64,000 nucleotides of DNA from a virus (IMGVR_UViG_3300024978_000008:14319-78318), one strand, 5' to 3'. Numbered from the stretch's first letter, positions 1 to 33,327 are shown. A program made the numbers and translations. Notes: a model not told the origin generated them from the letters alone.

Positions 1-96
1 TAACTGTGGATCACGATAACTAGCCATTTGTACAAATATGGTGTTCAGTGTTGAAATTTTTTCTTCTTTATTGTTTTCTTTATTATTTTTCTTCAT
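1..96 (-). CDS. Partial gene (5' end; runs off left edge): probable GT60/PF11397-type UDP-GlcNAc:polypeptide N-acetylglucosaminyltransferase
   Basis: Hand translation of the minus strand from ATG at 96: MKKNNKENNKEEKISTLNTIFVQMASYRDPQL; SD GAGGA just upstream; TIFVxxASYRDxxL is the N-terminal signature of the Gnt1/GT60 family. Only 32 codons visible. Confidence 0.6.
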   Translation of the reverse strand, partial: MKKNNKENNKEEKISTLNTIFVQMASYRDPQL

Positions 97-7049: not shown

Positions 7050-7307
7050 TTATATTTGATTTTGTATACCTAACACATATTTTTTATTATCTAAATAATC
7101 TATTAAAATTAATTGGCAATAATCATTATCAACCTTGTGTAATCTGATCATTATTGGACTGTTATCATGTCCATCTCTTTTGTATTTCATTACACGTTTA
7201 TAAATGCTATTAATTAAATTTTTTACTGGTGTTTTTTCCACCAAATCTAAAATAAGATTGCTAATATATTCACTTCTAGTATTGGAATTTTTTTCGTTAT
7301 TCATCAT
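7050..7307 (-). CDS. Hypothetical protein
   Basis: 85-aa ORF with 4-bp overlap to the upstream gene; SD AAGGA follows for the next gene. Confidence 0.65.
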   Translation of the reverse strand: MMNNEKNSNTRSEYISNLILDLVEKTPVKNLINSIYKRVMKYKRDGHDNSPIMIRLHKVDNDYCQLILIDYLDNKKYVLGIQNQI

Positions 7308-16868: not shown

Positions 16869-18458
16869 TTATGAATATAAATTATTAAAATTTTTTATGA
16901 AGTGCAACTTGCCGCAATCCCATATTTTATCACATTGTTTATCATCATTTAGCAACTCTTTATATAATCTACGTGATGTAGATTTCTCTTTTAAATCTAC
17001 ATAATAATGTTTTGGTTCTGATATGTGATCTAATTCAAACCCACATTTTATAAAATGATATCCATTATTCCATCTTCTATCACATGTTACTGTTATTGAT
17101 GATGGTGAATTAAATTGGACAAAATGATATAATATTTTTTCTACTGCAGTTTCTATGTCAACATTTGGAGTGAATTCATAATTCAATATATCATATTTGT
17201 TATCATAAATTGAATTAAACGACATAATAGCAACAATGTTATTATTGTATTTTAAGCCTATATTAACATTTGCAGATTGATATCCATCAAAACAATTTTC
17301 ATTGTAAAATTTTATGGTTTCCAACTCTGTAGGAATAATTACTTCACATTCCATTCCGCTTATTTTATGTTTTTCTAACAATTGTTCAATTTTGGTAATA
17401 ACTACATGTTTTTTATGTAGCCATTCATTTTCCAATATTTGAATACATCTATAACCAGCTTGTTCAGCAGCGATTGTTTTGTTTAAATGATAATTTTTAT
17501 CTTTACCACCTTTATTTTCACTGTGCCAGTATAATCCATTATATTCAATGACCAATTTATTTTCTTTAGATACTATATCCAACTCTTGAGGATAGATCAC
17601 AGTTCTATCTTGCGTTATAACATTTTTATCATATTTGGATACAATATCAAATAATTCTTTTTCGGCTTTTGGTTTAGAATTACTATAAAGTTTAATCTCG
17701 ATTCCAAATTTTTTCATTTTCTTGCCTAATGCAGATTTGCTTATGTTCAAATTTTGAGCAATTTCGGTACATGACATATGTTCGTCATGATGCAAAGTTT
17801 TTAAATAATTTTTATCATTTAATTTCTGATATTGATCATCAGTAAATTTTAATTGTAATGAATTAACGCGATTATGATTTTTTAAATATTTTTCTTTGCG
17901 AAGTTTTGCCAAATGTTTATTGTAATTTTCACCATACTTTTTTAATAAAGTTTTTTTGACTTTTTTAACCAAAATTTTTGATTTTAATGGAACAGTTACA
18001 TTATAATTATCCATTAAGGTTTGTTTAGCTTTATTTCTTATTTCTAGACTCTTCATGGGATTAGTAACACCATATCGTTCTTTCATGGTGACATCTCGCT
18101 TTGCAAACGATGATTCAATATAATATGGACATAATTTTCCGCAAGTTGACGCATATTTGTAACCACCAGTTCTTCGAAATGGTAATTTGTTGCCACATTT
18201 ACATAATGGAATATCTGTTATAAAATTTATAATTCTATAAATTTTCTCTATAAATTCAACATTCTTATTGTCTGCACAATATTCATCAATTTCTGTAGAT
18301 AATTGTGGATAGTTTAATAAAATTTTTTTATGTTTCCCGTTAACTCTCATCTGATGAATATCAACGCAATCATCCGATAATAATAAATTAGTTTTGATCA
18401 ATTTTTCTATTAACGATAACCCTGTCAAATCATGTAAAATTTTATGCATTCTATTCAC
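16869..18458 (-). mobile_element. Free-standing homing-endonuclease-like gene (Zn motif, YGVxNP repeats, HTH, PD-(D/E)xK domain)
   Basis: CKCG...CGKLC, RYGVTNPM repeats, ELDIVSKENKLVIEYNGLYWHSE, IWDCG C-terminus; paralog of 58443..60146. Confidence 0.75.
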
Positions 18459-18504: not shown

Positions 18505-19242
18505 TTATAAAACGTTTTTTATAATTGTCAATGTTGATGGAATGTAAGATGGAACATTAATTGTATCAGATGGTAGCAGTATAGTGTTAATGCAGTATGT
18601 TCCCCATGATATTACAGTAGAAGAAGATTTTTCATCATTATCATCTAATAATGACCAAAACAATCCATCATAATCATGTAGAGATGATGGTGAATAATCA
18701 CCATAAACTTTGATAGTATAATCGCCAACAGTAGCATACTTATGTACAACTGAAATATTATTTGTGTCATCAATAGTGTCAATAAAACCATCACCCCAAT
18801 CCACAAAAGCATCATCAGAAGGATTATAGATTTTTAGAATATATCCAGAAGCATCATTGACACGTAACGTAAATGGACGTTTTGGTTCTGGTGTTGGTGT
18901 TACAGGAAGTCCATTATTGAATGACGTTGATGGTGTAGGGGATGGTGTGCTAGTCTGATATGGTGTTCTTGTTGGCGTTGGAGTGTTAGAGCTAGTAATT
19001 GTTGGTGTTGGTGTTATTTTGTACGAGTATGCTATTTCAGCTTTTGATAATGTTGGAAATAATTGATTATGTGACCATGATTCAATAGTTGAAGTATCTA
19101 ACATGATAAAACTATAAGTCATTTGGTCATTTACAATACCATCTACTGAATAACAAATACCTGACCTAATAGTAAGAGTATCCGATAACATCCATGCAAA
19201 ATTACCAATCTGATAAGTATATCCATGTAAATTATAATTCAT
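18505..19242 (-). CDS. Virion-associated protein: T/P linker plus PKD-like domain; truncated paralog of 21582..23267
   Basis: VDWGDG...HKYATVGDYTIKVYGDY...SWGTY...VPSYIPSTLT aligns with the 561-aa protein but stops where the DUF285 repeats begin. Confidence 0.7.
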   Translation of the reverse strand: MNYNLHGYTYQIGNFAWMLSDTLTIRSGICYSVDGIVNDQMTYSFIMLDTSTIESWSHNQLFPTLSKAEIAYSYKITPTPTITSSNTPTPTRTPYQTSTPSPTPSTSFNNGLPVTPTPEPKRPFTLRVNDASGYILKIYNPSDDAFVDWGDGFIDTIDDTNNISVVHKYATVGDYTIKVYGDYSPSSLHDYDGLFWSLLDDNDEKSSSTVISWGTYCINTILLPSDTINVPSYIPSTLTIIKNVL

Positions 19243-19283
19243 TTTATATCCAATTTATTGTATATTTATTATATAAGAATTAG

Positions 19284-20084
19284 TTATTGTTTAGGAAAAT
19301 CTGACATTGCATCGACATCGGCTAAAGTGAAATTCTCACCAGTTTCAAGCGTATCAAATGATATATTATTAAAATCTTCGGGTGATAATGCTTGTAATCT
19401 TAATTGAATAGATTTTATATAATTTTCTTTAAAATTGACAGGTACTTGGAACCATGCATAAGTGCTAAAAATCATGCTAGATATGTTTATCTTTTGACCT
19501 GTTCCTGACGGATAATTTTCTTCGAATCCAATAGTTTCTAGTTGTAATTGAGTTATTTTTCCACCATCAAAAGGATCATCACTTGTTTGAATTTGGATGC
19601 TTGGATCAAATATAGGCAATATTTGTTCAAATATTTGAAATTTTTGTAAATCATTTGAAGTGAATATGTTCAAAGCAAAAGCTAATTTGTAAGGAAGTGG
19701 AGTTCTTCTATAATTTACTTGCAATCCATCGGGTAATGATTCTCCTGAAGGTAAAAAAACTTTTCTATCAATTGAACCGATACCTTTGTATCTTTCGGGA
19801 GCAGGTTGAATGTCCGCTAGTTTTACTGAAAACATAGGAAGTCTAAGTGGTTTATTTTGTGTATTTGCAGAAATAATTGCTTCTACTACTCTATCAACAC
19901 CAGCATATCTAATAGGTACATTTATCAAGTTAGATGCAGAATTAAAATCATTTTTACCAATTCGAACTTGCATTCCTGAAAATACTGCCATAAATTGTAT
20001 AATGTACGATTTTAATTGTTCGTCATACCAGAAGTTACCAAAAGGTGTGTCGAAAAATGGGATGTTTGGATCAGTAACAGCCAT
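19284..20084 (-). CDS. Neck / tail-completion protein (gp15-like)
   Basis: FWYDEQLKSYIIQF..VFS, VPIRY, LRLP, PLPYKLAFAL.I, QIFEQILPIFDP. Confidence 0.75.
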   Translation of the reverse strand: MAVTDPNIPFFDTPFGNFWYDEQLKSYIIQFMAVFSGMQVRIGKNDFNSASNLINVPIRYAGVDRVVEAIISANTQNKPLRLPMFSVKLADIQPAPERYKGIGSIDRKVFLPSGESLPDGLQVNYRRTPLPYKLAFALNIFTSNDLQKFQIFEQILPIFDPSIQIQTSDDPFDGGKITQLQLETIGFEENYPSGTGQKINISSMIFSTYAWFQVPVNFKENYIKSIQLRLQALSPEDFNNISFDTLETGENFTLADVDAMSDFPKQ

Positions 20085-20097
20085 AATATTCTCTTAA

Positions 20098-20436
20098 TTA
20101 TAGATTATTTATTACGGTATATACTTCACCAAAAAATAATATAGAAGCCATTCCAGTTACATATGCTGAATTAAAGTTTATAGAAATACTATTAGGGTCT
20201 ATAAATGTTATTTCTGGATATACTTGAGTTTGTGAACCGTCTTCATTATCAATGAAAATTTGAACAAACACTTCATAGGAGCCTAAATTATGTTTAACAT
20301 TCCAAATGTTTGAAGCTGATGTTTGAGTAAATTTAAATCCTTCCTGAAATTTTTCGGCTCTCTGATCAGTGTCAAAAATTTGTCCAGTGTCAGTATCAAT
20401 AACGATTTTTTTGATGTTTGGAAAAATATTATTCAT
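20098..20436 (-). CDS. Small virion protein with W..KHNLG beta-domain
   Basis: QTSASNIWNVKHNLG...FIDPNSISINF module, also present in the 561-aa protein. Confidence 0.6.
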   Translation of the reverse strand: MNNIFPNIKKIVIDTDTGQIFDTDQRAEKFQEGFKFTQTSASNIWNVKHNLGSYEVFVQIFIDNEDGSQTQVYPEITFIDPNSISINFNSAYVTGMASILFFGEVYTVINNL

Positions 20437-20446
20437 ACATTTCCTA

Positions 20447-21550
20447 TTATGTTGGAGAAACTGTTGGTGTTACTGTAGTTGTTGGAGTAAATGTTGGAGT
20501 AACAGTAATTGATGGAGTAGGTGTTGGCGTTTGCGTGGATGAAATAGTTATCGATGGAGTAGGCGTCGGAGACAGTGTTGGCGTAATAGATGGGACTACT
20601 ATACCATTTATCAGTTCAATAGGTTGTATATCAATATATACGGTATTTGACGACACAACATGTCCTATACGTTGAATTGAATAACGTTGAGGCACTGTCG
20701 TTGTTAATTCTCCTTGTGCACCAACAAATAAGGGTGTGTTAGGTGCTTCAGAAAAATTCCAATTAATATAATTGGTAACTAATCCTTTAGTTATAAAAGG
20801 TTTTACTTCATTGATTCCAGAATTTTCAACAGAAATACCAATGCATGGATATTGAAAATTCATATAGGATGCCACACCTAATTTTTTCGGTCCTTTCCAT
20901 GTAACACAATGATATGCTGGAATAGGTTCAAAAGATTGAGCCGACATTAAAACTGCATCTAATCTATACGCATTTTTATTGTCTTGTTGTGTATGTATGG
21001 GAGTTTCTGTTGTCAGAAAATAATTATTTCCTGCATTATCTGTAAATTTTCCCGGAATTTGATTAGAATCAAATAAAATATATCCTAATGATATTTGAGA
21101 ATTTAGATTAACTTGAGAACCTAATGGTGATGGATTAAGAATAGCGGCGTTTTCAACATTTCCAGCAAAAATTCTCAAACATGGAATCCAAGATGATCCA
21201 CTCCAATAGAACATTTTCTTTTGTATTAGATCAAAAAAATGTGTATGTAATGCTGGATTTGTTGGATATGTTGTACCAAAAGTCGGAGCTATTGTAGTCA
21301 TCCCGAAAGTTCTAACACCCGTTCTTAAATTTATATCCCAATAAAGATAAGATGTTACGCCCGCTTGAAATGGTCCCCAAGCAGCTAATACTTGTTCAGA
21401 TTCTGTAAATAGATAATCATGTGTACCATATGCAAAAGCTAAATCTATAGGAACTATGTCAACATTAAGGTTAACATATCCATTATTTAATTGCACATAA
21501 TCATTTGCAACTTGTGCATTGATAATTCCTTGTCTAAAGTTTATTAACAT
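20447..21550 (-). CDS. Virion structural protein with C-terminal Thr/Pro tract
   Basis: 367 aa, structural cluster, AATAAATA box at 21573-21580; ends PSITPTLSPTPTPSIT...VTPTVSPT. Confidence 0.65.
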   Translation of the reverse strand: MLINFRQGIINAQVANDYVQLNNGYVNLNVDIVPIDLAFAYGTHDYLFTESEQVLAAWGPFQAGVTSYLYWDINLRTGVRTFGMTTIAPTFGTTYPTNPALHTHFFDLIQKKMFYWSGSSWIPCLRIFAGNVENAAILNPSPLGSQVNLNSQISLGYILFDSNQIPGKFTDNAGNNYFLTTETPIHTQQDNKNAYRLDAVLMSAQSFEPIPAYHCVTWKGPKKLGVASYMNFQYPCIGISVENSGINEVKPFITKGLVTNYINWNFSEAPNTPLFVGAQGELTTTVPQRYSIQRIGHVVSSNTVYIDIQPIELINGIVVPSITPTLSPTPTPSITISSTQTPTPTPSITVTPTFTPTTTVTPTVSPT

Positions 21551-21581
21551 ATTAATTCAAAATAATTTATTATATTTATTA

Positions 21582-23267
21582 TCACGGTGGACAAGTTCCC
21601 CAAACTGGTCGTGATAATATCCATGAAGATGCTCCAGTATCAAAATTTGTAGGCAATGATGCAATATTTGTCACGCACCATCCAGATAAATCCTTATTAA
21701 ATGTTGATGCATTTTGGAACATGGAAATCATATCAGTTACATTACTGGTATCCCATGATGATATGTCTTGATTAAAATTTGTAGCACCGTTAAACATATT
21801 TCTAGTAGTAGTAACTTTGTTAGTATTCCATGTTGAAATATCACTATTAAATGCTGATGCACCACCAAACATGCCACTCATACTTGTTACATTACCAGTG
21901 TTCCATGACGACAAATCTTGATTGAAATTTGTCGCAAATGAAAACATTTGGAACATATTCGTTACATTGCTTACATCCCAAGAACTAATATTTTGATTAA
22001 AAATAGATTGTCGGAAAGTGCTAACCATAGAGATTACATTGCTCACATTCCATGAAGATATATCTATATTAAATGCTGCAGTTTGATTGAACATTTGAGT
22101 CATATCAGTTACGTTACTAACATCCCACCCAGATATATTTTGATTAAATATGGTTGCTCCACTAAACATACTATTCATAGAGGTTACATTGCTTACATTC
22201 CATGAAATAATATTACCATTAAATGTTGCACAATTGGCAAACATACTATCCATATTAGTTACATTACTAGTATTCCATGATGGCAAATCTTGATTGAAAT
22301 TTGTTGTGGATGAGAACATTTGTGACATATTAGTTACATTACTGACATCCCATGAATTAATATTTTGATTAAATCCTGAATAAGCAAACATTTGACTCAT
22401 GTTTGTTACATTAGACGTATTCCATGATGACAAATCTTGATTAAAATTAGATGATCCTTTAAACATTCTAGTTAAATTCGTCAATGTTGTTGGTATAGAA
22501 TTTGGAACATTAATAATATCCATCGGTAAACTTATACTATGAATATTGTAAGTTCCCCAAGACGCTACTGTAGATGCTGATTCGCCGGGATCATCGTCTA
22601 GTAACTCAAAACTTATTCCACCAAAATTTATAGTTGTTGAAAAATAATCACCATAAATTTTAATAGTATAATCACCTACTGTAGCATATGTATGAATTAT
22701 TCCATTACTACAAGCATCATCACTACCATCATCACTACCATCAGGAATATTATCAATAGTGCCATCACCCCAATCAACTGATGCATTATTAGAAGCACCG
22801 CATGCATATAATGTATATCCAAAACCATTAGTTACATTCATTATAAACGGATTCAATAATACGGGTGATGGTGTAGGAGAAGGCATAGGATTATTAATGC
22901 AAACTTTTGGTGTAAAACTATCTAAAAATAATATATTGACAAATCCTGATGTGGGCTGGTTGAAAGCTATTGATATGTTATTTTCATCTATTATAATAAT
23001 ATCAGCTATGCATAATTTATTATCAATGAATACATTAGCTTTGAACATTTTTGAGTTCTTGTTATGTTGTATTTGCCAAGTTGTTGAAACTGTTGATTGA
23101 ATGAATTGAATGCCTCTCGCTTGATCATATATTTCAGATTGTAAAATTTTTACACCATCGGAATATCTTCTAAATTCTTGTACTAATGGGATACATCCAT
23201 CTACAGGAAATGATGTCGATGGTGTAATTGATGGTGTAAGCGATGGCGTTAATGTTGGTGTTGGCAT
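21582..23267 (-). CDS. Virion surface protein: T/P tract, HNxx domain, PKD-like domain, about 11 DUF285 (BspA-type) repeats
   Basis: About 25-aa repeats FNQDLSSWNTSNVTNMxxM; C-cap WCVTNI...RPVWGTCPP. Confidence 0.85.
   Translation of the reverse strand: MPTPTLTPSLTPSITPSTSFPVDGCIPLVQEFRRYSDGVKILQSEIYDQARGIQFIQSTVSTTWQIQHNKNSKMFKANVFIDNKLCIADIIIIDENNISIAFNQPTSGFVNILFLDSFTPKVCINNPMPSPTPSPVLLNPFIMNVTNGFGYTLYACGASNNASVDWGDGTIDNIPDGSDDGSDDACSNGIIHTYATVGDYTIKIYGDYFSTTINFGGISFELLDDDPGESASTVASWGTYNIHSISLPMDIINVPNSIPTTLTNLTRMFKGSSNFNQDLSSWNTSNVTNMSQMFAYSGFNQNINSWDVSNVTNMSQMFSSTTNFNQDLPSWNTSNVTNMDSMFANCATFNGNIISWNVSNVTSMNSMFSGATIFNQNISGWDVSNVTDMTQMFNQTAAFNIDISSWNVSNVISMVSTFRQSIFNQNISSWDVSNVTNMFQMFSFATNFNQDLSSWNTGNVTSMSGMFGGASAFNSDISTWNTNKVTTTRNMFNGATNFNQDISSWDTSNVTDMISMFQNASTFNKDLSGWCVTNIASLPTNFDTGASSWILSRPVWGTCPP
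21670..22470 (-). repeat. DUF285-type coding repeats (about 11 x 24-25 aa)
   Basis: Counted in the translation; approximate boundaries. Confidence 0.85.
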
Positions 23268-23289
23268 ATATGTTTAATTATATTTATGA

Positions 23290-26200
23290 TTAGATCGCTG
23301 GTGTTGTTGTTGGCGTAAACGTAGGTGTTACAGTGGTTGTAGGTGTAATAGTTGGGGTCACTGTAGCAGTATTAGTTGGCGTCACTGTAACTGGCGGTGT
23401 TGTAGTACTCGTCATAGTTGGGGTCACTGTAACTTCCGGTGTTACGGTTACTGGTGGTGTCGATGTTGGAGTATACGTTGGAGTAACTGTAGGACTCATT
23501 GTTATCGACGGAGTAATAGTATTCGTCATCGTCGGTGTGGGAGTAGCCTCGGGTGTAATAGTAATGGTTGCCGTCATTGTTGGAGTGACTGTTATCGTTG
23601 GAGTAGCTGTCATCGTTGGTGACGCAGTGACCGATGGTGTAGGCGTTGGTGTAGTACTTGCACCCAATGAACCTGTCACTGATGGTGTAACTGTAATAGT
23701 TGGTGTCGCTGTTGCAGTAATAGTTGGAGTTGTAGTAATAGTTGGTGACATTGTAGGCGTGATAGTTACTGTCGGTGTTATCGTTGCAGTTACTGTTGAC
23801 GTAGCTGTTACTGTTGGTGATGGTGATGCTGTCACTGTAACGGTTGGCGTTACAGTCATTGTAGGTGTTATCGTTGCAGTTACTGTTGGCGTAGCCGTTG
23901 TTGTCGGTGTTGGTGATGTTGTCATTGTCATCGTCGGTGTAACAGTCATTGTTGGTGTATACGATGGTGTATGTGTTGGGAATACACTTGGTGTAATAGA
24001 AATAGTAACCGATATTGTTGGCGTAATTGACGGTGTTGGTGATGGTGTAGGTAATGGTAATTGTGTAGGAATAATAATATTCTCATTAATATCACAAGCA
24101 CCACCCGGAAATACAGTAGCAATGCTTGGTGTATAATTGCTGACAGTATCTACATTTTGTGCAATATCTATAGCTACCCAAGAAGTCTTGAAAAAATCAG
24201 GACTATTATATCTGAGTGTCATTGCATCATTTAATGTAGCGAAATAGATATAATTGACATTTACTACATTGAAGCTTTCATATATAGCATACATCGCATC
24301 GATGATATTATTAACTGTAGAAAAATTGTAAGTATTTAAAAATGATGTAATATCAATGTTGATAAAATTTTGGTTAGGATCATTTAAAATAGTTTGAATA
24401 GTGGTCAAACCTAAATCTGGCGACACAAAAATTTGTTCATCACCTAAACCATATTGTGTATCAGTATCATATAATGAATCAAAAAGAATTCGGTCTAATG
24501 ATGGTATAGTCTTAGATGTGTCAATAATGTTATTGACTACTGGATATCCGACTAAAGCGCTAATTAATTTTTCCCACAAGAATATGTCAATTTTATCAGT
24601 TTGGTTTTTTCTGAACATTTTCCATTCATAATGAACATTCTTTAAAGCCAATGGTGTTTTGACTGGATTTACACTGGAATAATCATAGATATTACCGTTG
24701 ATAGGCATTTTATCTCGCAACGTGAAATCGCGGATAAATCGTAATGCATATCTATTATCATCCATTACTTGGCCTTTCAATCCTTTGATTGCTACTTGAG
24801 TATAGCGAACAGGTAAGTCATATGGTACACCATCAAAAATATCACCAAAGATAATGCCATATCCGTCATCATTATATCTTAAACCACTTAATATCATATA
24901 AGGATTCGGATTATTCAGTAAATCTTTTTTAGCCTGTAATGACGAAGAAGCATAATTAGTTGTATTAGTAATAATTGATGTATTATTCTGCACCCAGAAA
25001 TAATAATATGGTACAAGAGAACCATTTGTTTCACTAACTTTCGACATAACTGAATAAGGTGTATCATACTTATAAAGTAGATTTGAAATATCCGCCGCTG
25101 TAGGAGAATATACAGGTAATATAACAGTAATATTGTCGCTCAATAATGGTTTACTAATTTGATCAGGTATTAAGGCACCATACATATAATCATTCAATGT
25201 GTGTTGTGTCAAATCCATTGATAAATCAAATATACCATTTCTATACATATTAACAACACCACTAAATGGAACAGTAGTACTCGTTGTAATTAAAGCTGCT
25301 AATATATTAAAAATTTCATCTTCGATTGGATTCCATAAAGGATTATCAATAGTTCCTACATTTTTGTACAATAATTGTCTAGGTGTACCACCATTTGGGT
25401 ATACTTGTGTATAATTAGCAGGTAAAACTGTAGATTCTATCCATTGGTTTACATTAAGTTGTGCATAATCGGCTAACTTACCCCAATTGTTTATTCTATC
25501 ATTAGAACTTGGGAAAATGTATTGATCATAATATGGTATATAAGCCAATTTAGATGTATCCATCCACACAGTGTTTAATCTAGATTTGTACCAAATATTA
25601 ACGTCTGCTGAATTTATAAAATCATTTGTATATACGGCTGGATCGACATTATCGATGATATCCATTAGAGAATATGCATATTGATTATGTTGATTTAATG
25701 CTGGATTCCATATAGCAATCTGATTAACGATTCGTCCTTCAGTCTTATCCACAAATACTGCTGGAGTATGTGCATTATAATTGTAAGTAAGTTCACTTAC
25801 TGTTAAATTTGTTAAATTCGTAGGATCATTAACAAATTTAACTATTTGTGAATTTAACATTACATAATCTGTAGATTTCGTTAAAGTTTTAGTTTTTCCA
25901 GTTGTGTTATCCAAATATGTGATTATAACACCATCATAATGTCCATCTAATAATAACAAATAATTTCCATTCAAATGTTGAATATGAGATTCTTGGTTAT
26001 AGAGAATATTCGCTACTCTAGCGTTTAAATAGAATGATAAGTAAGGATTCATTTTATCTACAACATCAGGTTGATCCCACCAACGAGTATTATCTGTTAA
26101 CGCTACTGATGTATAAGTATCATCCAACGCATTTTCGTCTGGGTTAACAAATTCCACTTTCATCACAGATTTAGTAGAATCCGAACGTTTCATTTTTAAT

Positions 26201-29200
26201 TCTATGTAATTTTTCTCTTTAGAATCTCCAAAACGACCTAATTTATATACCCAGAATTCATCAAGGTCGGCATTGTTGAATATCTTTTGATTGGTGTAAG
26301 CGTCAATACTTAAATTAGTGCCTTTGTTCTTAATCATTGCTCGCCAAAAAATGAAATCACTTTTTGCGTTGATATTGATGTCTTTCATGTATGAATGACG
26401 ACCAGTAAATCCTAAAGATTTACGTCCTTCTTGTATAACAGGTTTAGATTCTAAAACTTTGTAAGTATCGTATAAAGTTCTGACATCATTTATCGAAGAT
26501 TCGAAATTCTGCATCAAATCGTTATTGTATAAAATAAATCCACCTACATTAGGGCGTAATGTTTTTGTAGGTTGACGGTTAAATTCAACATAGAATCTTT
26601 GAGTTTTCAAACCTAAGAAAGGGTCATATATTAAATTATTAGCAACTGAATAATCATTAAAAGTAATAATGTTTTCATATCCATCCACAAAAGCATGCAT
26701 TCCAGTGATATAAACTGGATTAGAAGATGTCAAATTGTTATTGTTTATTTCAGTAGTTAAACCTATTTGAGTGTTATCATCATTTCTTAATACCATTAAC
26801 TGTGATTGTGTTAATGATGTACCATATTGATTATAGATTTTTTGATTAGTCAATACATCTTGTCTATCATTTTTTAACACATCCGATAGAACGCCAACAG
26901 GATGATTTATCGCTACAGCTTTTTTATATGGGTTTAACATAAATTTTGGCAATATTGGAAGCTTTCTATATATTTTAAATCCCATATTGCCAGAACCGGG
27001 GTTATCAAATGTTATGTAATTTCCTTTTTTAGCGTCATCGCTTGTATATGCTAATTGAAATCCCTTTCCATCATTAGATGGAATAACATAATACGGAATA
27101 TATTGTTTTAACGGATTATCAAATGGTGTTGGTAGAATTGCACCATCCAATGCTATTAAAACTACTTGTTGAGAAATATTAACTTGCGTGTTTACTGAAC
27201 TTATATTGTCATCAATATACACAAATCGACTATTTGCATAATCTGATTTGATCCTATATGTTAAATCATTTTGTTGATTTAGAACAGTTAACAAATATAT
27301 CCAGTTAATGAAATATTCTATTTCCAACTGCCAACTATTCATTCTTCCCGAAGAAACTTCTATATTATCCAAATCTTTTGTTTTTGTTGAAAAGCCTATG
27401 CTTTCCATATAATCTGAATAGCCATCTATAAAATCTACCATAGATTGTATGTTTGAAATATATAATGGTTGCGGTACAGTAATAGCTTGTCTTGTATCAG
27501 AGTAGTGTTTTCTCCACGCAGTATCAACGACATTCCCACCTAACGATGTAAATGTGCTTTGTATTCTTCCTACATATTGTTGACTTATAGTATTAGTTAA
27601 TGGTGTAATTTTACCTACATTAGTTATGGCTGAATCATAATTTTTAGTCAAACTAAAAGTATAATCATCAATAACAATAATATAATATGGTGTATATTCA
27701 TCGAACGGCACTGATAATACACTATCTGAAGTAAGATATACTTCTGTTCCAGTTGTCCATGTGTCGGGTATTGTTCGTCTTGAAAGAGGTCTTACAATAC
27801 CATCTACCGTAGGAATTGTTACTGTTAATGATTCATTGACAAATATTTTTGTAATTGAATTAGTTATATCATAATATACAGATTTTACAGTAAAAGTACC
27901 ATTCAATTGTGTAGAATCTTCGATAGTGAAGGTAGCACCTTCATAGAATATATCAGTTAAATTGCCATTTAAATCAAATGATTTATCAAATGCATATTCA
28001 GTACTGATATTATTTGTTATTCCTGTATAATTTGAATATAAGGTAACAAATAATCCAAAGTCTGTTATAGTAATATCGTTTTCGGATTGAACATACAAAT
28101 TACCATCATTAAGGAAAAAAGTTGCTTCTCCATTCAACTGATTATTTAAAGTTGTTATTGCTGTTTCTATCGTAGATGCATTAGTAGCATTTAAAGTCAA
28201 TGAAACATCAGTTATTCCTAATGTAATAGTAGCGGTATACGATGAAGACCCTGTATATAATGTTGAGTAATTTAAATTCAATGATTCGCTGTAACTCACT
28301 ATAGCTTGGTTGGTTGGAGTAACAATTCCTGCATTAACAAGATCATATGCATAGATTTCAAATATGTTTGAGTTTTTTACGGCCCTAAAGCTAAAGTTTT
28401 CTTTTGGAAAATAGGTTATATCTCTATTAATGGATGATGATGTATTAAATTGTGTAGTCCAACCTATACCTAAACTTCTATTCTTAGAATATGTTGATGG
28501 TGCACTTAATACCGTGCTGTATAATGAATCGAACCAGAAATCATTATATCCGTAAGTTTTCTTTACATCTACTTGATAATCTTTATTTGTCATATCAAAT
28601 AGTTGATTGGTGATGGTGAAACTAGGTGTATCTACATAAGCTTCAAACAAATATCCTAGTTTAACATCCCAATCTTTCCACAATGATTTAAACTGTGCAG
28701 CATCTGAATCATAACCATAATATCTGTTGTTATGTATATACCATTGATTTAAACCGTTGGATGAGTAGACGTTTCCATTATCATCAATTTCGCCATGGAA
28801 TAAAACATCCTTATGCGAGTATACATTTTTTGTTGTTGGGTCAACATTTAAACAATTAATGTTAATTAATGAATTACCATTAAATGTATAATATATAAAT
28901 CTTATTGGGTCCAATTTAAATGATATGATCATTTGATCATACCAATATTGTGCAGAGGTTTTCCATTCCCATTCGTTTATGTTACCGTCACCAAATGTAT
29001 AATCTATGTTAGGATTTACGATCACATCATTTACATTCGCATCATATAATGGCTTTATTCTAGAATTGGAGGTATTTGCGCTGTTCCAATATGGTGGTAA
29101 CAATGCATCTGATTCATATCCATCCGAAGTTGGAGTGTTTTCAATATTAATGGGAAGATATGTGAATACAGTGTCTATTTGGTTATTAATTCCTGTTGAG

Positions 29201-32200
29201 ACATTCCCTGATGGTAATAGACGCCCGGCAGGGACTACACCATTAAAGATGTTGTTCCACATGAAACTTTTCCATTTTCTTGTTCCAGTAGTGTCTACAT
29301 AAACACTGTCCCACCATACAGGTTTATTATCATACCACTGTAGTTTCCATGGTTCTAAATGAGGAAATGGAGTATTAAAAACTTTTGTATAAAGTTCTTG
29401 ATAACTAGCAGCTATGTCATATGAAATATTACCAGTTAAAGGACTTACTGGAATAGGAGTAAATCCATAATTCCATGTAAACGGATCATTTTGTACATAA
29501 TCATTGTTTATTAACTGACTTGAAATATCATTTTTCATCGCCCATAACGAAAACTGACTATTATTTAATTCTCTATATGCTTCATTTGTGTTATTTTTAG
29601 TTAAATCGTAGATTAAAGAATCGTACACTGGAACCGCTTTATATAGTTGAGTTTCAATGTCTAAAATTATGTTAGCTAATACATTGTTTAAATCGATATG
29701 TTCCCAAATCGATGAAGAATTCAATCTATACAATTTTCGAGTCTTTGTCACAGTGTTTACTCTTATCAAAAGAGAACCTAATGATCCTAAGCTAAATGGA
29801 GTGCTATCTGAAGTCACTATTTGAGTAGGTATTCCAACATTTCTTAATGTGGAGAATATTTTTTGTTCTATCGACATTTGAAGCTTAACTTCTTGTATAT
29901 GTCCATCATGACATACTACAGAATTCAATTTTAGTTCACTATCATATAAAATGTATGGAACTACAGGTTTTAATAATCCGAAAAACGGTAGTGTTGCTAC
30001 CCAATTTTTAAATCCTATGTTAGTAGTTGAATTATAAGTTGTGCTATCTCCAAACCAATCATCAAATTTTGAATTTGATGTATATGAATTCTCAATAAAA
30101 GATGTAATTATTTTTTGCAACGATGTTAAATTTGAGACTGTTACATTTGTTGTTAATAAGCTAACAATATTTTTAATATAATCTTCTTGTATAAAATTAT
30201 ATCCATTCAAATATTGGTCATGTCCAAATTGAATAACTTGGAGTGGATTTGTATTATTCACCATAACAGAAGATATGGACAAATCTAATCCATTATTATG
30301 TTCTTTTATGGTTCCACCTAAACCATAATTTATATTATCATCTAGATAAGCTAAATTAGTTGTTGCAGTATTGATTAATCCCGGAACTTCTTGTTGAGAG
30401 ATAATCGTAGAAAAGTGATTCAATAATTCGGAATAGTTTATGTAATTTTCTAATCCATGATTAATGTTGTATATCCAAGAATTGGGTATATCCCATGATC
30501 CATCAGATAGAGTTTGAGGCACATATTGTTCGTTATGTAAACCGCGTTTCCAAATAGTTTGTAATGGATAGTTAGGCTGCGCAAAGTTTTTATAGCAATA
30601 TAATGTTTTGTTATCTGAATCAGATAACAATTGTGTAAATCCATAATCATTAGTCGAAGCATCATTTACTATTCGACGTAATAGATATAAGTTGACATTA
30701 TATGAAGGGTCTTCTCTAAATTTAAATATTTCATTTGCAAAATCTTTGGCTGTACCATCTACGTCATAGAGATTGAAAAATGGATAGAGATTTTGTAATG
30801 GCTTATCTTGTTCCATTTTTCTAATTCTGACAATGTTAACCAAATCATAAGATAGATTTGGATCAAGAGTTTGTTCAGATGTAACTAGTGGAATTGATCT
30901 TCTACCAATATCTTCTATGTCATATTCACCTAATTCTATTCTAATAATGTCAGATTTATTGATTATTACATCACTATCAAACGTTATCGAACCTACATAT
31001 TCTGGATAAACTAATGATCTATTGTCTGTGAATTTGCCATATTGTCTAATTTCGTTAATATAGACTCTAATGTCACCTTCTTGATAATCATCATACAACA
31101 CATATTGTTGCAATGATGGATCAAAAGTTATGGTAGTTCCTATGTTGCCATCTGTCAAATATGACATTGATTGCCACATTAACCCAACGTTAACTTCGAC
31201 ACTATTTACATGATCTACATAAGATTGGATGAAGATTTCAAGCATTGGATTTGGAGTAGGTTGTAAACTTGAAGCCTCAATATTTTTTGTTCCATAAAAC
31301 ATCCAATGTTTTTTAGAACCTAACCATAAATCTCCTTGAGACGTATATTGTGGGCCTATATTAGCTCCTACAGGTAAATCAAATGGATTTGTTATATTTT
31401 TAGTTAATGTTACATAAGTACAAAATTCTTCTGTTGGTGATGGTTGATGATAACTAACACTTTGTACTGTAACCAATCCATTGTTATTGGCGAATCCAGA
31501 TAATTTCAACCGTGATCCTACAGAAATATCTGCAACTAAATTACCAAATTTAGAATTAAATTTAATAGAATTTGATGTATTAAAAATAAATGCTGGTGAT
31601 GTAGTGCCATCCAATGTAGCATCGATTAATTCAAACAATGTAGGTTCAGTCTCCACTTCTTCATATAGATTTGAAGGAATATTTCTATATTTCCATTCAT
31701 ATGTGGCTAATGAAGTATCAGACAATTCTAAGAATGGATAAAATTCGATAATAGGTAATTGTGCGCGAACTTTTCCAGAAAAGTTTACAATTTCATTTTT
31801 ATGAATCCATTTATTTGATGCTGACCATGGATCATTTTGTTTTAACGATAATTTGTATCGTTGTTGAGTAGCATTAGTTAATAGTAATATTCCTTTGACT
31901 ACAGTAACCCATTCATAACCATTCCATTGATTTACTGTATCATTAACTGTGTTAATCCATACTTCGTTAATGAATGGAGCTGTTGGAGCCATATCATCCG
32001 ATATCGAAGCATATGATTGTGGTTTGGCGATAACATAATTTAAATTATCTTTTGTGAAAGTTCTAACATATGAATCAACAGCAATGAAATTTGATTGTAC
32101 ATTGATGATGCGATATGTTCCTGTGTTAGGACCATTGTTTATATGTAAAGTATCACCAGCAACTATTCCTAATGAAATAAAATCATAGGAATCATCGTAA

Positions 32201-33327
32201 ATACCATGATCACCAAGATGGCTATAGCCTGTTTCAGAAGATAACAATGAAACTTCATTGGCCCATATCAGATTACCGACATATGCATCATTCCAAGAAT
32301 TAATATATCTGACTTCTCTATCACCGTTTACTGCATTATATTCAGCTTCAGCTAATGTGGCTAATGGAATAGTAGATATTTGAGTCCAACCACCGGCATA
32401 ATCAATCGGTTGGTCTACTGTAATCGTTGATGTATTTGTTTGTGGATCATAAGTCGTATTAACTACTGAAAATAATGTATTGATAGATGTAGAATGATTT
32501 ATCGCAGAAAAGATATAATCAGGCGTGAATATTTGTGTTAAATCATTAGACAACGTAAATGAGTTGTCAGTATTTGTAGAAATAATAGGTATAGAAGCGT
32601 TATACATTGTTGTATAAGTTATTCCATCCATACTATTAACTAGGGATATTTCAGTTTTACCTGTTATAGAATCCAAAGATATAGAATCTATTTGATTAAT
32701 TTGGTAATTATTAGATGAGTCATGTAATATAACAAAATCATCAAGATCAAAAAATGGTAATTGATTACCTGTCAAATATAAATTGAACGGATCAATGATG
32801 TTTACATCGAATGATGTTTGTATTTGTGTAATCGCAAACTTATATTGATTACTACGTGATAATGCCCAATTCAATTCATTTTTAATAGTTATGTAATCTG
32901 GAATTTCATTGACATTTGACGTATTCCAATAATAATCTTGATAATTGATTAATTTGTCTATATCAATAGGTGGAGCATAGTTGAATTGGAGCATGTTACC
33001 CCATTCATTAAACTTGCTGATATCTACTCCCAATCGAGACAATCTTTGTAGATAATCAGGAAATGTTAGATATTCAGTCTCCGATCCCAATTTGGAATAA
33101 ACTACTGGTTGTAATTGGTTTTTTTGTGCGTATAACGAAGACTCAATAATTTGTTTAAGCGGACTTGTATAATCTGGAGAACCAATAATACCGACAATAT
33201 GATTATATTCATCTTTAGTCAAAAATCTATTAAATAAGTTGTTATTTAAATTCTTCAAAAATGAAGATTTATTTTGTTCTGGAATGAAGCTATTTAAATC
33301 AGTCCGTGGTTTGGTGTAGTCCGACAT
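23290..33327 (-). CDS. Giant (3345 aa) virion structural protein, probable baseplate wedge-associated, with about 260-aa Thr/Pro C-terminal tract
   Basis: Directly downstream of the gp6-like gene, exact TATAAATA at 33352-33359; N-terminal IDIDKLINYQDYYW motif. Confidence 0.7.
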   Translation of the reverse strand: MSDYTKPRTDLNSFIPEQNKSSFLKNLNNNLFNRFLTKDEYNHIVGIIGSPDYTSPLKQIIESSLYAQKNQLQPVVYSKLGSETEYLTFPDYLQRLSRLGVDISKFNEWGNMLQFNYAPPIDIDKLINYQDYYWNTSNVNEIPDYITIKNELNWALSRSNQYKFAITQIQTSFDVNIIDPFNLYLTGNQLPFFDLDDFVILHDSSNNYQINQIDSISLDSITGKTEISLVNSMDGITYTTMYNASIPIISTNTDNSFTLSNDLTQIFTPDYIFSAINHSTSINTLFSVVNTTYDPQTNTSTITVDQPIDYAGGWTQISTIPLATLAEAEYNAVNGDREVRYINSWNDAYVGNLIWANEVSLLSSETGYSHLGDHGIYDDSYDFISLGIVAGDTLHINNGPNTGTYRIINVQSNFIAVDSYVRTFTKDNLNYVIAKPQSYASISDDMAPTAPFINEVWINTVNDTVNQWNGYEWVTVVKGILLLTNATQQRYKLSLKQNDPWSASNKWIHKNEIVNFSGKVRAQLPIIEFYPFLELSDTSLATYEWKYRNIPSNLYEEVETEPTLFELIDATLDGTTSPAFIFNTSNSIKFNSKFGNLVADISVGSRLKLSGFANNNGLVTVQSVSYHQPSPTEEFCTYVTLTKNITNPFDLPVGANIGPQYTSQGDLWLGSKKHWMFYGTKNIEASSLQPTPNPMLEIFIQSYVDHVNSVEVNVGLMWQSMSYLTDGNIGTTITFDPSLQQYVLYDDYQEGDIRVYINEIRQYGKFTDNRSLVYPEYVGSITFDSDVIINKSDIIRIELGEYDIEDIGRRSIPLVTSEQTLDPNLSYDLVNIVRIRKMEQDKPLQNLYPFFNLYDVDGTAKDFANEIFKFREDPSYNVNLYLLRRIVNDASTNDYGFTQLLSDSDNKTLYCYKNFAQPNYPLQTIWKRGLHNEQYVPQTLSDGSWDIPNSWIYNINHGLENYINYSELLNHFSTIISQQEVPGLINTATTNLAYLDDNINYGLGGTIKEHNNGLDLSISSVMVNNTNPLQVIQFGHDQYLNGYNFIQEDYIKNIVSLLTTNVTVSNLTSLQKIITSFIENSYTSNSKFDDWFGDSTTYNSTTNIGFKNWVATLPFFGLLKPVVPYILYDSELKLNSVVCHDGHIQEVKLQMSIEQKIFSTLRNVGIPTQIVTSDSTPFSLGSLGSLLIRVNTVTKTRKLYRLNSSSIWEHIDLNNVLANIILDIETQLYKAVPVYDSLIYDLTKNNTNEAYRELNNSQFSLWAMKNDISSQLINNDYVQNDPFTWNYGFTPIPVSPLTGNISYDIAASYQELYTKVFNTPFPHLEPWKLQWYDNKPVWWDSVYVDTTGTRKWKSFMWNNIFNGVVPAGRLLPSGNVSTGINNQIDTVFTYLPINIENTPTSDGYESDALLPPYWNSANTSNSRIKPLYDANVNDVIVNPNIDYTFGDGNINEWEWKTSAQYWYDQMIISFKLDPIRFIYYTFNGNSLININCLNVDPTTKNVYSHKDVLFHGEIDDNGNVYSSNGLNQWYIHNNRYYGYDSDAAQFKSLWKDWDVKLGYLFEAYVDTPSFTITNQLFDMTNKDYQVDVKKTYGYNDFWFDSLYSTVLSAPSTYSKNRSLGIGWTTQFNTSSSINRDITYFPKENFSFRAVKNSNIFEIYAYDLVNAGIVTPTNQAIVSYSESLNLNYSTLYTGSSSYTATITLGITDVSLTLNATNASTIETAITTLNNQLNGEATFFLNDGNLYVQSENDITITDFGLFVTLYSNYTGITNNISTEYAFDKSFDLNGNLTDIFYEGATFTIEDSTQLNGTFTVKSVYYDITNSITKIFVNESLTVTIPTVDGIVRPLSRRTIPDTWTTGTEVYLTSDSVLSVPFDEYTPYYIIVIDDYTFSLTKNYDSAITNVGKITPLTNTISQQYVGRIQSTFTSLGGNVVDTAWRKHYSDTRQAITVPQPLYISNIQSMVDFIDGYSDYMESIGFSTKTKDLDNIEVSSGRMNSWQLEIEYFINWIYLLTVLNQQNDLTYRIKSDYANSRFVYIDDNISSVNTQVNISQQVVLIALDGAILPTPFDNPLKQYIPYYVIPSNDGKGFQLAYTSDDAKKGNYITFDNPGSGNMGFKIYRKLPILPKFMLNPYKKAVAINHPVGVLSDVLKNDRQDVLTNQKIYNQYGTSLTQSQLMVLRNDDNTQIGLTTEINNNNLTSSNPVYITGMHAFVDGYENIITFNDYSVANNLIYDPFLGLKTQRFYVEFNRQPTKTLRPNVGGFILYNNDLMQNFESSINDVRTLYDTYKVLESKPVIQEGRKSLGFTGRHSYMKDININAKSDFIFWRAMIKNKGTNLSIDAYTNQKIFNNADLDEFWVYKLGRFGDSKEKNYIELKMKRSDSTKSVMKVEFVNPDENALDDTYTSVALTDNTRWWDQPDVVDKMNPYLSFYLNARVANILYNQESHIQHLNGNYLLLLDGHYDGVIITYLDNTTGKTKTLTKSTDYVMLNSQIVKFVNDPTNLTNLTVSELTYNYNAHTPAVFVDKTEGRIVNQIAIWNPALNQHNQYAYSLMDIIDNVDPAVYTNDFINSADVNIWYKSRLNTVWMDTSKLAYIPYYDQYIFPSSNDRINNWGKLADYAQLNVNQWIESTVLPANYTQVYPNGGTPRQLLYKNVGTIDNPLWNPIEDEIFNILAALITTSTTVPFSGVVNMYRNGIFDLSMDLTQHTLNDYMYGALIPDQISKPLLSDNITVILPVYSPTAADISNLLYKYDTPYSVMSKVSETNGSLVPYYYFWVQNNTSIITNTTNYASSSLQAKKDLLNNPNPYMILSGLRYNDDGYGIIFGDIFDGVPYDLPVRYTQVAIKGLKGQVMDDNRYALRFIRDFTLRDKMPINGNIYDYSSVNPVKTPLALKNVHYEWKMFRKNQTDKIDIFLWEKLISALVGYPVVNNIIDTSKTIPSLDRILFDSLYDTDTQYGLGDEQIFVSPDLGLTTIQTILNDPNQNFINIDITSFLNTYNFSTVNNIIDAMYAIYESFNVVNVNYIYFATLNDAMTLRYNSPDFFKTSWVAIDIAQNVDTVSNYTPSIATVFPGGACDINENIIIPTQLPLPTPSPTPSITPTISVTISITPSVFPTHTPSYTPTMTVTPTMTMTTSPTPTTTATPTVTATITPTMTVTPTVTVTASPSPTVTATSTVTATITPTVTITPTMSPTITTTPTITATATPTITVTPSVTGSLGASTTPTPTPSVTASPTMTATPTITVTPTMTATITITPEATPTPTMTNTITPSITMSPTVTPTYTPTSTPPVTVTPEVTVTPTMTSTTTPPVTVTPTNTATVTPTITPTTTVTPTFTPTTTPAI
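23293..24060 (-). repeat. Low-complexity (T/V/I)TPT mucin-like coding tract
   Basis: TPTVTATITPTMTVTPT-type repeats with varied codons, so protein-level rather than DNA-level repetition. Confidence 0.9.

What the first reader, a model, noticed from the sequence alone, without database searches (positions are those of the whole stretch)
18890..24060. Mucin-like Thr/Pro tracts on a run of neighbouring virion proteins
Seen: T/P tracts at the C-end of the 3345-aa protein (about 260 aa), N-end and middle of the 561-aa protein, C-end of the 367-aa protein, middle of the 245-aa protein, and also beside the lysozyme domain of the hub (about 40340-40500). Codons vary, so selection acts on the peptide. 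The terminal tracts link nothing, which argues against a simple linker role. Inference: extended stalks or bristles, probably O-glycosylation acceptors.
Basis: partly seen in the sequence, partly recalled or inferred. Interest (0 to 1): 0.7.

Follow-up and report, generated by a model that had tools for sequence, protein, structure and literature searches.

The report
Thr/Pro stalks on phage tail proteins
Several tail and baseplate proteins of this uncultured jumbo phage carry long threonine/proline stalks, usually placed between an anchoring part and an outer binding part, and the phage encodes an enzyme of the family that starts mucin-type sugar coats, so the stalks are probably sugar-coated spacer arms.

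Summary
All the tracts lie in frame at the stated places, use mixed codons and show a strict two-residue rhythm, (X-Thr)n with X = Pro, Val, Ile, Ala or Met.

The window is part of an 89.7-kb piece of an XacN1-like jumbo myovirus. Just outside the window lies a 1895-residue protein that is about half tract, including one uninterrupted run of about 585 residues.

The tracts sit where conserved virion-anchoring domains meet exchangeable outer modules (PKD plus DUF285 repeats, SPRY-like domains, lysozyme, a small beta domain). About 85% of the tracts in related phages are internal. Two of the three terminal tracts here match internal linkers in relatives or look like gene splits (367|112, giant|561).

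The glycosylation idea gains real but indirect support:
- A GT60 polypeptide GlcNAc-transferase gene, with an HtrL-like partner and a carbamoyltransferase, lies next to the tract-richest gene.
- GT60 and Thr/Pro tracts occur together in at least three phage lineages and in bacteria.
- The cultured relative XacN1 has Schiff-positive virion proteins.

No chemistry was tested. I re-tested it independently and it held.

The parts
23290..33327 (-). Giant 3345-aa protein in the gp7 position, next to the gp6-like wedge. The conserved body is aa 1 to about 3083.
   Evidence: ORF. 40% identity to XacN1 ORF325 over aa 2-3078. 59.5% identity to the G001 orthologue over aa 1-3083.
23293..24078 (-). C-terminal Thr/Pro tract of the giant protein, about 260 aa, ending at the stop codon.
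   Evidence: It starts exactly where homology to XacN1 and G001 ends.
21582..23267 (-). 561-aa protein: N-terminal tract, small beta domain ('domain X'), short P/S/T linker, PKD-like domain, DUF285 repeats.
   Evidence: PF03382 at 2.4e-114. Domain X matches the 112-aa protein. The PKD-like part is 48% identical to the 245-aa protein.
23211..23264 (-). N-terminal Thr/Pro tract of the 561-aa protein (aa 2-19).
   Evidence: The G001 orthologue also begins with a tract.
22860..22889 (-). Short P/S/T linker (aa 127-136) between domain X and the PKD-like domain of the 561-aa protein.
20447..21550 (-). 367-aa fibre-base protein: shoulder-like domain (aa 1-152), beta-tulip domain (aa 196-315), then the tract.
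   Evidence: AlphaFold2 model. VIA-align Z 11.8-9.9 to phage capsid-decoration proteins and Z 5.5-7.3 to receptor-binding-protein shoulder domains. 31 homologues.
20450..20593 (-). C-terminal Thr/Pro tract of the 367-aa protein (aa 320-367), ending at a double stop.
   Evidence: pLDDT about 45.
20098..20436 (-). 112-aa 'domain X' protein, probably the detached distal module of the 367-aa protein.
   Evidence: It aligns to aa 339-427 of P0021, directly after the 367-type body of P0021 (E 1e-5). PHROG hits to the ends of head-decoration and virion structural proteins.
18505..19242 (-). 245-aa protein: 75-aa N-terminal anchor domain, tract, PKD-like domain.
   Evidence: The same N-domain heads the 1895-aa protein, a 691-aa ORF of G001 and P0032.
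18883..19017 (-). Internal Thr/Pro tract of the 245-aa protein (aa 76-120).
38672..41098 (-). 808-aa baseplate hub protein with an inserted lysozyme domain.
   Evidence: PF00959 at 9.4e-35. The insertion is seen only in this window, G001 and G005.
40358..40462 (-). Thr/Pro tract at the N-terminal boundary of the inserted lysozyme domain.
   Evidence: The tract and lysozyme are present together or absent together.
1..96 (-). First 32 codons of the 480-aa GT60 glycosyltransferase gene. The rest lies upstream of the window at contig 12972-14414.
   Evidence: PF11397 at 3.5e-71. Gene call of 480 aa in L314. 60% identical to XacN1 ORF334.

Best explanation
The tracts are intrinsically extended (X-Thr)n spacer arms, with Pro every 4-8 residues. 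They are built into tail, baseplate and fibre proteins of an XacN1-like jumbo myovirus.

They sit at the junction between a conserved domain that fixes the protein to the virion and an exchangeable outer module. The anchoring domains are the giant gp7-position body, the 367-aa shoulder plus beta-tulip base, the 75-aa N-domain and the hub. The outer modules are PKD plus DUF285 repeats, SPRY-like domains, lysozyme and the small domain X.

In the infected cell the Thr residues are most likely O-glycosylated. The phage's soluble GT60 polypeptide alpha-GlcNAc-transferase would start the glycan, its constant HtrL-like companion would extend it, and the carbamoyltransferase would sometimes decorate it. 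This would turn the tracts into stiff, hydrated, protease-resistant bottle-brush stalks. At 0.25-0.34 nm per residue these would be about 12-17 nm (367-aa protein), 65-88 nm (giant protein) and 146-199 nm (1895-aa protein).

Terminal tracts are what remains when the outer module is encoded by the next gene (367|112, giant|561) or has been lost. As free glycosylated bristles they may still be useful.

Shown: sequence features, position, disorder prediction, modular exchange and gene co-occurrence. Inferred: glycosylation, its chemistry, stalk stiffness and virion location.
For: - **Sequence and position.** Composition, period-2 rhythm and mixed codons are. Pro spacing is even, and TPT is the commonest context. 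The tract is predicted unstructured next to a confident body.
- **Junction position.**
  - The giant body aligns to XacN1 and G001 only up to aa 3078-3083; beyond that all three have Pro/Thr tracts of different length, and those two orthologues also have different end modules.
  - The 367-type body occurs alone (312-341 aa), with a tract plus module, with the tract only, or with collagen-like, PTR or DUF2793 shafts instead.
  - The hub tract arrives together with the inserted lysozyme.
  - The 75-aa N-domain is followed by a tract in four different proteins.
- **Tract census.** 103 internal, 12 C-terminal and 5 N-terminal.
- **Virion role.**
  - The genes lie between the gp6-like wedge and the gp15-like protein and sheath.
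  - The 367-aa fold matches capsid-decoration and fibre-base proteins.
  - In an unrelated 152-kb phage the tract genes follow a tape-measure-like gene and hit baseplate-wedge families.
- **Glycosylation genes in the contig.** GT60, the HtrL-like protein and the carbamoyltransferase lie beside the 1895-aa tract protein.
- **GT60 and tracts together.**
  - Tracts lie within 10 kb of 44/80 GT60 loci against 6/80 control wedge loci (p = 5e-11).
  - All 10 GT60-positive genomes that are at least 90% complete carry 17-175 pattern hits.
  - The largest (75-365 kb) GT60-negative relatives bar one 23%-complete fragment carry 0-2 hits.
  - 12/26 tract-sampled records carry GT60, against 0/27 tract-free ones (p = 4e-5).
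- **Independent lineages.** The GT60-positive phages have at least three different baseplate types. Eight of 10 bacterial GT60 loci carry long Pro/Thr ORFs within 10 kb, five directly next to GT60.
- **Companion enzyme.** The HtrL-like protein accompanies GT60 in 70/90 loci.
- **Known chemistry of the family.** GT60 enzymes add alpha-GlcNAc to Thr of mucin-like domains that are about 50% Thr (PMC8724618, PMC3769586).
- **Cultured relative.** XacN1, whose GT60 is 60% identical, has Schiff-positive virion bands and at least 12 Pro/Thr-tract loci.
Against: - No direct chemical evidence exists for this phage. The XacN1 glycoprotein bands were never identified.
- Three complete tract-bearing phage records lack GT60 (G068, G081, G097), so the tracts do not need this enzyme.
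- Many co-occurring records are related to each other, so the Fisher p-values overstate independence.
- The GT60 gene could serve another substrate.
- Virion location of the giant, 561-aa and 245-aa proteins rests on gene order only. The relatives annotate the giant protein as hypothetical.
- Terminal tracts recur in 17 of 120 tracts and in four or five of 13 tract-bearing members of the 367-aa family. They may therefore have a role of their own that the spacer model does not explain.
Confidence: 0.6

Rival explanations
1. The tracts are plain, unmodified flexible linkers, like many bacterial Pro/Thr linkers. The GT60 cluster serves another target, such as host surface molecules, other phage proteins or DNA.
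For: Most tracts are internal linkers. Three complete tract-bearing phages have no GT60. Phage glycosyltransferases often modify DNA or host antigens (PMC12619734).
Against: GT60 is a polypeptide-modifying family. Tracts are enriched 9-fold around GT60 genes and are present in every complete GT60-positive genome, also in bacteria. XacN1 virions contain glycoproteins.
Confidence: 0.2
2. Glycosylation follows the Skp1 route. The prolyl-hydroxylase-like oxygenase (window 7304-7927) hydroxylates Pro in the tracts, and GT60 then adds GlcNAc to hydroxyproline rather than to Thr.
For: There is a weak 2OG-Fe(II) oxygenase hit (4.4e-4). The tracts are 15-28% Pro.
Against: The oxygenase follows the XacN1-like clade, not GT60. 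It is present in tract-free, GT60-free G008 and G010, and absent from eight GT60-positive genomes of other lineages. The Pfam hit is below threshold.
Confidence: 0.06
3. The main selected property is at the DNA level. Low-complexity tract DNA serves as a recombination joint for swapping outer modules between fibre genes, and the peptide is a tolerated by-product.
For: The tracts sit exactly at module exchange points. The same small Cys module follows Pro/Thr tracts on two different anchors.
Against: DNA identity between tracts is only 63-82% over short stretches, which is too low for efficient homologous exchange. Mixed codons and a strictly kept peptide rhythm point to selection on the peptide.
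Confidence: 0.08
4. The alternating Thr/hydrophobic pattern folds into regular beta structure (cross-beta or solenoid fibres with a Thr face), giving rigid protein rods without any sugar.
For: There is a strict period of 2, with Val, Ile or Met at many X positions.
Against: Pro occupies about 30% of X positions and recurs every 4-8 residues. AlphaFold2 gives no strands and low confidence. Tract lengths vary freely among orthologues.
Confidence: 0.05

Closest known systems
Mucin-type O-GlcNAc domains made by GT60 polypeptide alpha-GlcNAc-transferases (Trypanosoma cruzi mucins; Dictyostelium mucin-type domains that carry the modB glycan epitope)
   Same: The domains are Thr-dominated and Pro-containing with low complexity. 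An initiating enzyme of the same Pfam/CAZy family is encoded alongside.
   Different: Here the enzyme would act in a bacterial cytoplasm on phage structural proteins. The tracts have a strict (X-Thr)n rhythm with Val or Ile and twice as much Pro. No glycan has been shown.
Pro/Thr-rich interdomain linkers of bacterial secreted multidomain enzymes (cellulases, cellulosomal scaffoldins). This comparison rests on my own knowledge, not on a tool result.
   Same: Similar composition, an extended conformation, a position between modules, and frequent O-glycosylation.
   Different: Those linkers are usually 20-60 residues long and are glycosylated outside the cytoplasm. The tracts here reach 260-585 residues, lie in virion proteins and are sometimes terminal.
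Mycobacteriophage virion glycosylation (Freeman et al. 2023, as summarised in PMC12619734)
   Same: Phage-encoded glycosyltransferases modify C-terminal regions of structural proteins.
   Different: The targets there are the capsid and tail-tube subunits. The enzyme families, hosts and phage lineages differ. I could not read the paper itself.
Xanthomonas phage XacN1
   Same: It is the closest cultured relative: wedge 56%, giant protein 40%, GT60 60%, HtrL-like protein 54% and carbamoyltransferase 50% identical. It has Pro/Thr linkers at the same position in ORF325. Its virion proteins are Schiff-positive.
   Different: Its tracts are short (PT)n linkers in a high-GC genome. It has no homologues of the 245-, 367- and 561-aa proteins in the syntenic region. 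No tail fibres were seen by EM.
Fibre shafts of phage head and tail fibres (phi29 gp8.5 head fibre; collagen-like fibre shafts)
   Same: A beta-tulip or shoulder-type base is followed by an elongated shaft and a distal domain. Distant members of the 367-aa family carry collagen-like or PTR shafts where this phage has the tract.
   Different: Those shafts are folded trimeric helices. The Thr/Pro tract is predicted to have no regular structure.

Membership tests
Pro/Thr-rich interdomain linker | Low-complexity segment dominated by Pro and Thr/Ser, nearly uncharged | tested here: met
   Thr plus Ser plus Pro is 63-83%. There are 0-9 charged residues per tract.
Pro/Thr-rich interdomain linker | Lies between two folded domains | tested here: inconclusive
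   Met for the tracts of the 245-aa protein, the hub and the 1895-aa protein, and for 103/120 tracts in relatives. Not met for three terminal tracts in the window, two of which are internal in orthologues.
Pro/Thr-rich interdomain linker | No regular secondary structure | tested here: met
   AlphaFold2 gives pLDDT about 45 and no helix or strand for aa 318-367, against about 90 for the body. This is a prediction only.
Mucin-type O-glycosylated domain (GT60 substrate) | Thr-rich acceptor region | tested here: met
   Thr is 42-44% in the long tracts. T. cruzi mucins are 46-54% Thr.
Mucin-type O-glycosylated domain (GT60 substrate) | Cognate initiating transferase encoded by the same genome | tested here: met
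   PF11397 at E 3.5e-71 covering model positions 6-350 of 352. The gene is 480 aa.
Mucin-type O-glycosylated domain (GT60 substrate) | Enzyme and acceptor tracts co-distributed across independent lineages | tested here: met
   The link is not obligatory: three complete tract-bearing genomes lack GT60.
Mucin-type O-glycosylated domain (GT60 substrate) | Sugar covalently attached to Thr | not testable with these tools
   The only evidence is indirect: Schiff-positive virion bands in XacN1, whose identity is not given.
Skp1-type hydroxyproline glycosylation | Prolyl 4-hydroxylase working together with the GlcNAc-transferase | tested here: not met
   The oxygenase-like gene does not follow GT60. 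It is absent from eight GT60-positive genomes of other lineages and present in two GT60-negative relatives. The Pfam score is below the cut-off.
Virion structural protein | Encoded in the tail/baseplate module, or with the fold of a virion protein | tested here: met
   The gene order is hub, VgrG-like, gp25-like (inferred from gene order and size only), gp6-like, giant, 561, 367, 112, gp15-like, 245, endonuclease, sheath. The 367-aa fold reaches Z 11.8 to decoration proteins.
Virion structural protein | Detected in purified particles | not testable with these tools
   The phage is uncultured. The XacN1 paper gives no readable list that includes ORF325.

The most novel reading that the evidence does not exclude
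Several unrelated lineages of large phages, and some bacteria, run a self-contained cytoplasmic 'mucin factory'. A GT60 enzyme with an HtrL-like partner coats (X-Thr)n tracts with sugars. The result is bottle-brush stalks up to 150-200 nm long that carry adhesin or enzyme modules away from the baseplate. Free terminal tracts would act as glycan bristles for shielding or weak adhesion. This would be a phage counterpart of eukaryotic mucin-type O-glycosylation.
Probability: 0.45. Interest if true: 0.8.

Novelty: new variant of a known kind. Interest (0 to 1): 0.6.

Why it matters
Glycosylation of phage particles is documented for very few phages, and I found no paper describing a mucin-like stalk system in phages.

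If the tracts are sugar-coated, a large share of the surface of these jumbo phages is glycan rather than protein. That bears on host recognition, protease resistance, sticking to mucus or biofilm, and recognition by antibodies.

The tracts also mark the points where fibre genes swap outer modules, which is useful when reading host-range determinants in uncultured phage genomes.

XacN1 is cultured and carries the same enzymes and tracts, so the idea can be tested directly.

Tried and rejected
- **Megablast of the region against GenBank phages:** no match. Relatives were reached only at the protein level.
- **Fusion of giant+561 or 367+112 by frameshift or readthrough:** rejected. The spacers are AT-rich; a stop two codons upstream of the 561 start blocks fusion with the giant, and the 367 gene ends in a double stop.
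- **Recent gene conversion between tracts:** rejected. DNA identity is only 63-82% over 40-620 bases.
- **Prolyl-hydroxylase partner:** not co-distributed with GT60.
- **Sequence search of solved structures:** nothing for GT60 and only noise for the oxygenase.
- **Foldseek on the 367-aa model:** no hit at E <= 0.001. Re-alignment with VIA-align gave the decoration-protein matches.
- **Identity of the XacN1 glycoprotein bands and of its virion proteins:** not recoverable, because the figures are images.
- **Freeman et al. 2023:** not held in the library.
- **Search for longer proteins with the 245-type N-domain:** a single hit.
- **Not run:** a complex prediction of the enzyme with a tract peptide, as unlikely to be informative.
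Full report
**What the window is**

The window is bases 14319-78318 of an 89.7-kb IMG/VR viral contig that CheckV rates 26% complete. GC content is about 31%.

Genes from 14651 to 42301 all lie on the minus strand and form a T4-like tail and baseplate module. Read along that strand, the order is:
- an 808-aa hub carrying a lysozyme domain
- a 652-aa VgrG-like spike
- a 122-aa ORF in the gp25 position (role inferred from gene order and size only; no search was run on it)
- a 970-aa gp6-like wedge
- a 3345-aa giant protein
- proteins of 561, 367 and 112 aa
- a gp15-like protein
- a 245-aa protein
- a homing endonuclease
- the sheath

The wedge is 56% identical to those of the Xanthomonas jumbo phages XacN1 and Xoo-sp13 and two Stenotrophomonas phages. 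The giant protein occurs only in that group, with two much weaker partial matches in Ralstonia and Sinorhizobium jumbo phages. The same phage is also found on metagenome contigs of 257 and 295 kb.

**Observation**

The one overstatement is the 'middle' tract of the 561-aa protein, which is a linker of only nine or ten residues.

The tracts are not just Thr/Pro-rich. They have a strict period of two, with Thr (less often Ser) at every second residue. The positions in between hold Pro (30%), Val (19%), Ile (15%), Ala, Thr or Met. Pro recurs at even spacings of 2, 4, 6 or 8, and charged residues are nearly absent.

Codon choice for Thr, Pro and Val is mixed and close to the genome background. At the DNA level there are only degenerate repeats. 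Selection on the peptide is therefore a fair reading.

Just upstream of the window, next to the sugar-enzyme genes described below and read toward them, is a gene for a 1895-aa protein (read in full from L314). Its layout is:
- a 75-aa N-domain
- a tract
- a domain of about 150 aa
- an uninterrupted tract of about 585 aa
- three SPRY-like domains separated by further tracts

About half of this protein is tract.

**Where the tracts sit**

Four independent comparisons place the tracts at the joint between a conserved anchoring part and a variable outer part.

1. *Giant protein.* It aligns with XacN1 ORF325 up to residue 3078 and with the orthologue in G001, a complete 340-kb relative, up to residue 3083.
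   - Beyond that point XacN1 has short (PT)n linkers, two small Cys-containing repeats and a globular end.
   - G001 has a 110-aa tract, a 230-aa domain and a 70-aa terminal tract.
   - This phage has 260 aa of tract and then a stop.
2. *367-aa family.* A search found 31 members.
   - Distant members are the 315-aa body alone, or carry collagen-like, PTR or DUF2793 shafts.
   - Closer members (44-63% identity), apart from two that lack a tract (P0006, P0013), carry a Thr/Pro tract of 50-160 aa, with or without a distal module.
   - Four or five members end in the tract, as this one does.
   - G001 has the body inside a 1061-aa ORF, with the tract at 322-364 and about 700 further residues.
   - In P0021 the body is fused directly to a domain that aligns with the 112-aa protein encoded by the next gene here (E 1e-5). 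The pair 367|112 therefore looks like a gene split just after the linker.
   - The same small domain follows the N-terminal tract of the 561-aa protein. In G001 it opens the gene after the giant protein.
3. *75-aa N-domain of the 245-aa protein.* The same domain heads the 1895-aa protein, a 691-aa G001 protein and P0032, each time followed at once by a tract.
4. *Hub.* The tract and the lysozyme domain are a joint insertion found here, in G001 and in G005. Both are absent from XacN1 and three other relatives.

A census of tract positions gives 103 internal, 12 C-terminal and 5 N-terminal in 79 GT60-centred loci. The counts are 16, 2 and 1 in G001, and 4, 2 and 1 on this contig. Terminal tracts are therefore a recurrent minority state, not the rule.

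The gene boundaries here are genuine. The spacers are AT-rich, and stop codons block a simple frameshift fusion.

**Structure**

With a 31-sequence alignment, AlphaFold2 folds the 367-aa body confidently as an all-beta structure (pLDDT about 90). It leaves residues 318-367 without structure (pLDDT about 45).

Residues 196-315 match the beta-tulip fold of phage capsid-decoration and head-fibre-base proteins:
- Z 11.8 to phage Adjutor
- Z 11.7 to HFTV1
- Z 9.9 to T1
- Z 7.4 to phi29 gp8.5
- Z 6.4 to lambda gpD

Residues 1-152 resemble the shoulder domains of receptor-binding proteins and TssK, at middling Z of 5.5-7.3. This fits a fibre base that docks on the particle. It does not settle whether the base docks on the head or the tail.

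**Glycosylation**

The contig carries a cluster of sugar-related genes:
- a 550-aa HtrL/YibB-like protein
- a 287-aa protein of unknown family
- a NodU/CmcH-type carbamoyltransferase
- a homing endonuclease
- a 480-aa PF11397 (GT60) glycosyltransferase whose first 32 codons are window bases 1-96

XacN1 has the same cluster (ORF330-334, 33-60% identity) right behind its giant gene.

[quoted passage not shown] They add alpha-GlcNAc to Thr in domains that are about 50% Thr (PMC8724618, PMC3769586).

I tested the link between GT60 and the tracts in several ways.
- *Near GT60 genes.* Tracts of at least 30 aa lie within 10 kb of 44/80 GT60 loci against 6/80 wedge-centred control loci (p = 5e-11).
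- *Complete GT60-positive genomes.* All ten that are at least 90% complete (131-350 kb) have 17-175 hits to a tract DNA pattern. The reversed-pattern control gives 0-2.
- *GT60-negative relatives.* Seven of the eight records of 75-365 kb have 0-2 hits; the eighth, G007, a 23%-complete fragment of a close relative, has 6.
- *Starting from the tract pattern.* 12 of 26 records of at least 40 kb carry GT60, and most of the negatives are fragments. None of 27 tract-free records carries it (p = 4e-5).
- *Independent phage lineages.* The GT60-positive phages fall into at least three groups by baseplate wedge type. In one unrelated 152-kb phage the tract genes form a run of nine or more tail-module genes.
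- *Bacteria.* In eight of ten bacterial GT60 loci, spanning Betaproteobacteria, Bacteroidota and Gemmatimonadota, long Pro/Thr ORFs lie within 10 kb of the enzyme gene; in five they are immediately adjacent.
- *Companion enzymes.* The HtrL-like protein accompanies GT60 in 70 of 90 loci and the carbamoyltransferase in 27.

XacN1 virions contain at least two Schiff-positive proteins. Its genome holds 31 (PT)3 pattern hits at 12 or more places.

There are limits to this evidence:
- The sampled records are partly related to one another.
- Three complete tract-bearing genomes lack GT60.
- Nothing chemical has been measured.

The prolyl-hydroxylase-like gene at 7304-7927 does not travel with GT60. 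A hydroxyproline route is therefore unlikely.

**Conclusion**

The tracts are best read as extended spacer arms at the anchor-to-module joints of virion surface proteins. They are probably converted into mucin-like glycosylated stalks by a phage-encoded GT60-based system.

The argument drawn from terminal tracts does not.

The GT60 link was already noted by this scan on the same genome (e1-5349983). My tests reproduce it for phages and bacteria, but I did not examine its type VI secretion claim.

Noticed in passing
window 16869-18458 (-), window 58443-60146 (+), L009:11136-12914 (-): Three paralogous homing-endonuclease-like genes (DUF7487 plus an MTES_1575-type nuclease). They are inserted between the sheath and the 245-aa gene, after the prohead protease, and between the carbamoyltransferase and GT60.
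   Followed up: no
L010:19-5249 (contig 78.2-83.4 kb, just past the window end): The phage encodes a PrkA kinase, a DUF444 protein and a SpoVR-like protein in a row. This is the bacterial PrkA/YeaH/SpoVR stress trio.
   Followed up: no
L010:9076-10358: Adjacent genes for a WGR domain and a PARP catalytic domain.
   Followed up: no
giant protein aa 3216-3232 (window about 23630-23680) and the 1895-aa protein (own-contig ORF aa 1361-1377): The same non-repetitive island, VTGSLGAS followed by TPTPTP, interrupts tracts in two different proteins. It could be a hinge, a processing site or a recognition site.
   Followed up: partly
P0012 C-terminus; L008:22982-32923 (XacN1 ORF325) C-terminal 230 aa: A small module with two Cys and a GRITEDG motif follows Pro/Thr tracts on two different anchor proteins. 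It occurs twice in XacN1.
   Followed up: no
window 7304-7927 (-): The prolyl-hydroxylase-like oxygenase is conserved in XacN1-like phages whether or not they have GT60 or tracts. Its substrate is probably something else.
   Followed up: partly
G004 (via L014, 77-kb contig) and G003 (via L013, 40-kb contig): Extreme tract density: 298 pattern hits in 77 kb and 47 in 40 kb.
   Followed up: no
L201, L210 (IMG/VR giant-virus MAG contigs): The same Thr/Pro DNA pattern occurs in contigs labelled as giant-virus MAGs. They were not held for the GT60 search.
   Followed up: no
L314:16481-17677 (-): A 398-aa protein next to the 1895-aa tract protein looks, by eye (a shared short conserved N-terminal stretch; no alignment was run), like XacN1 ORF329, which lies between XacN1's giant gene and its sugar-enzyme cluster.
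   Followed up: no
window 62727-63296 (+): A phage-encoded PTH2-type peptidyl-tRNA hydrolase.
   Followed up: no
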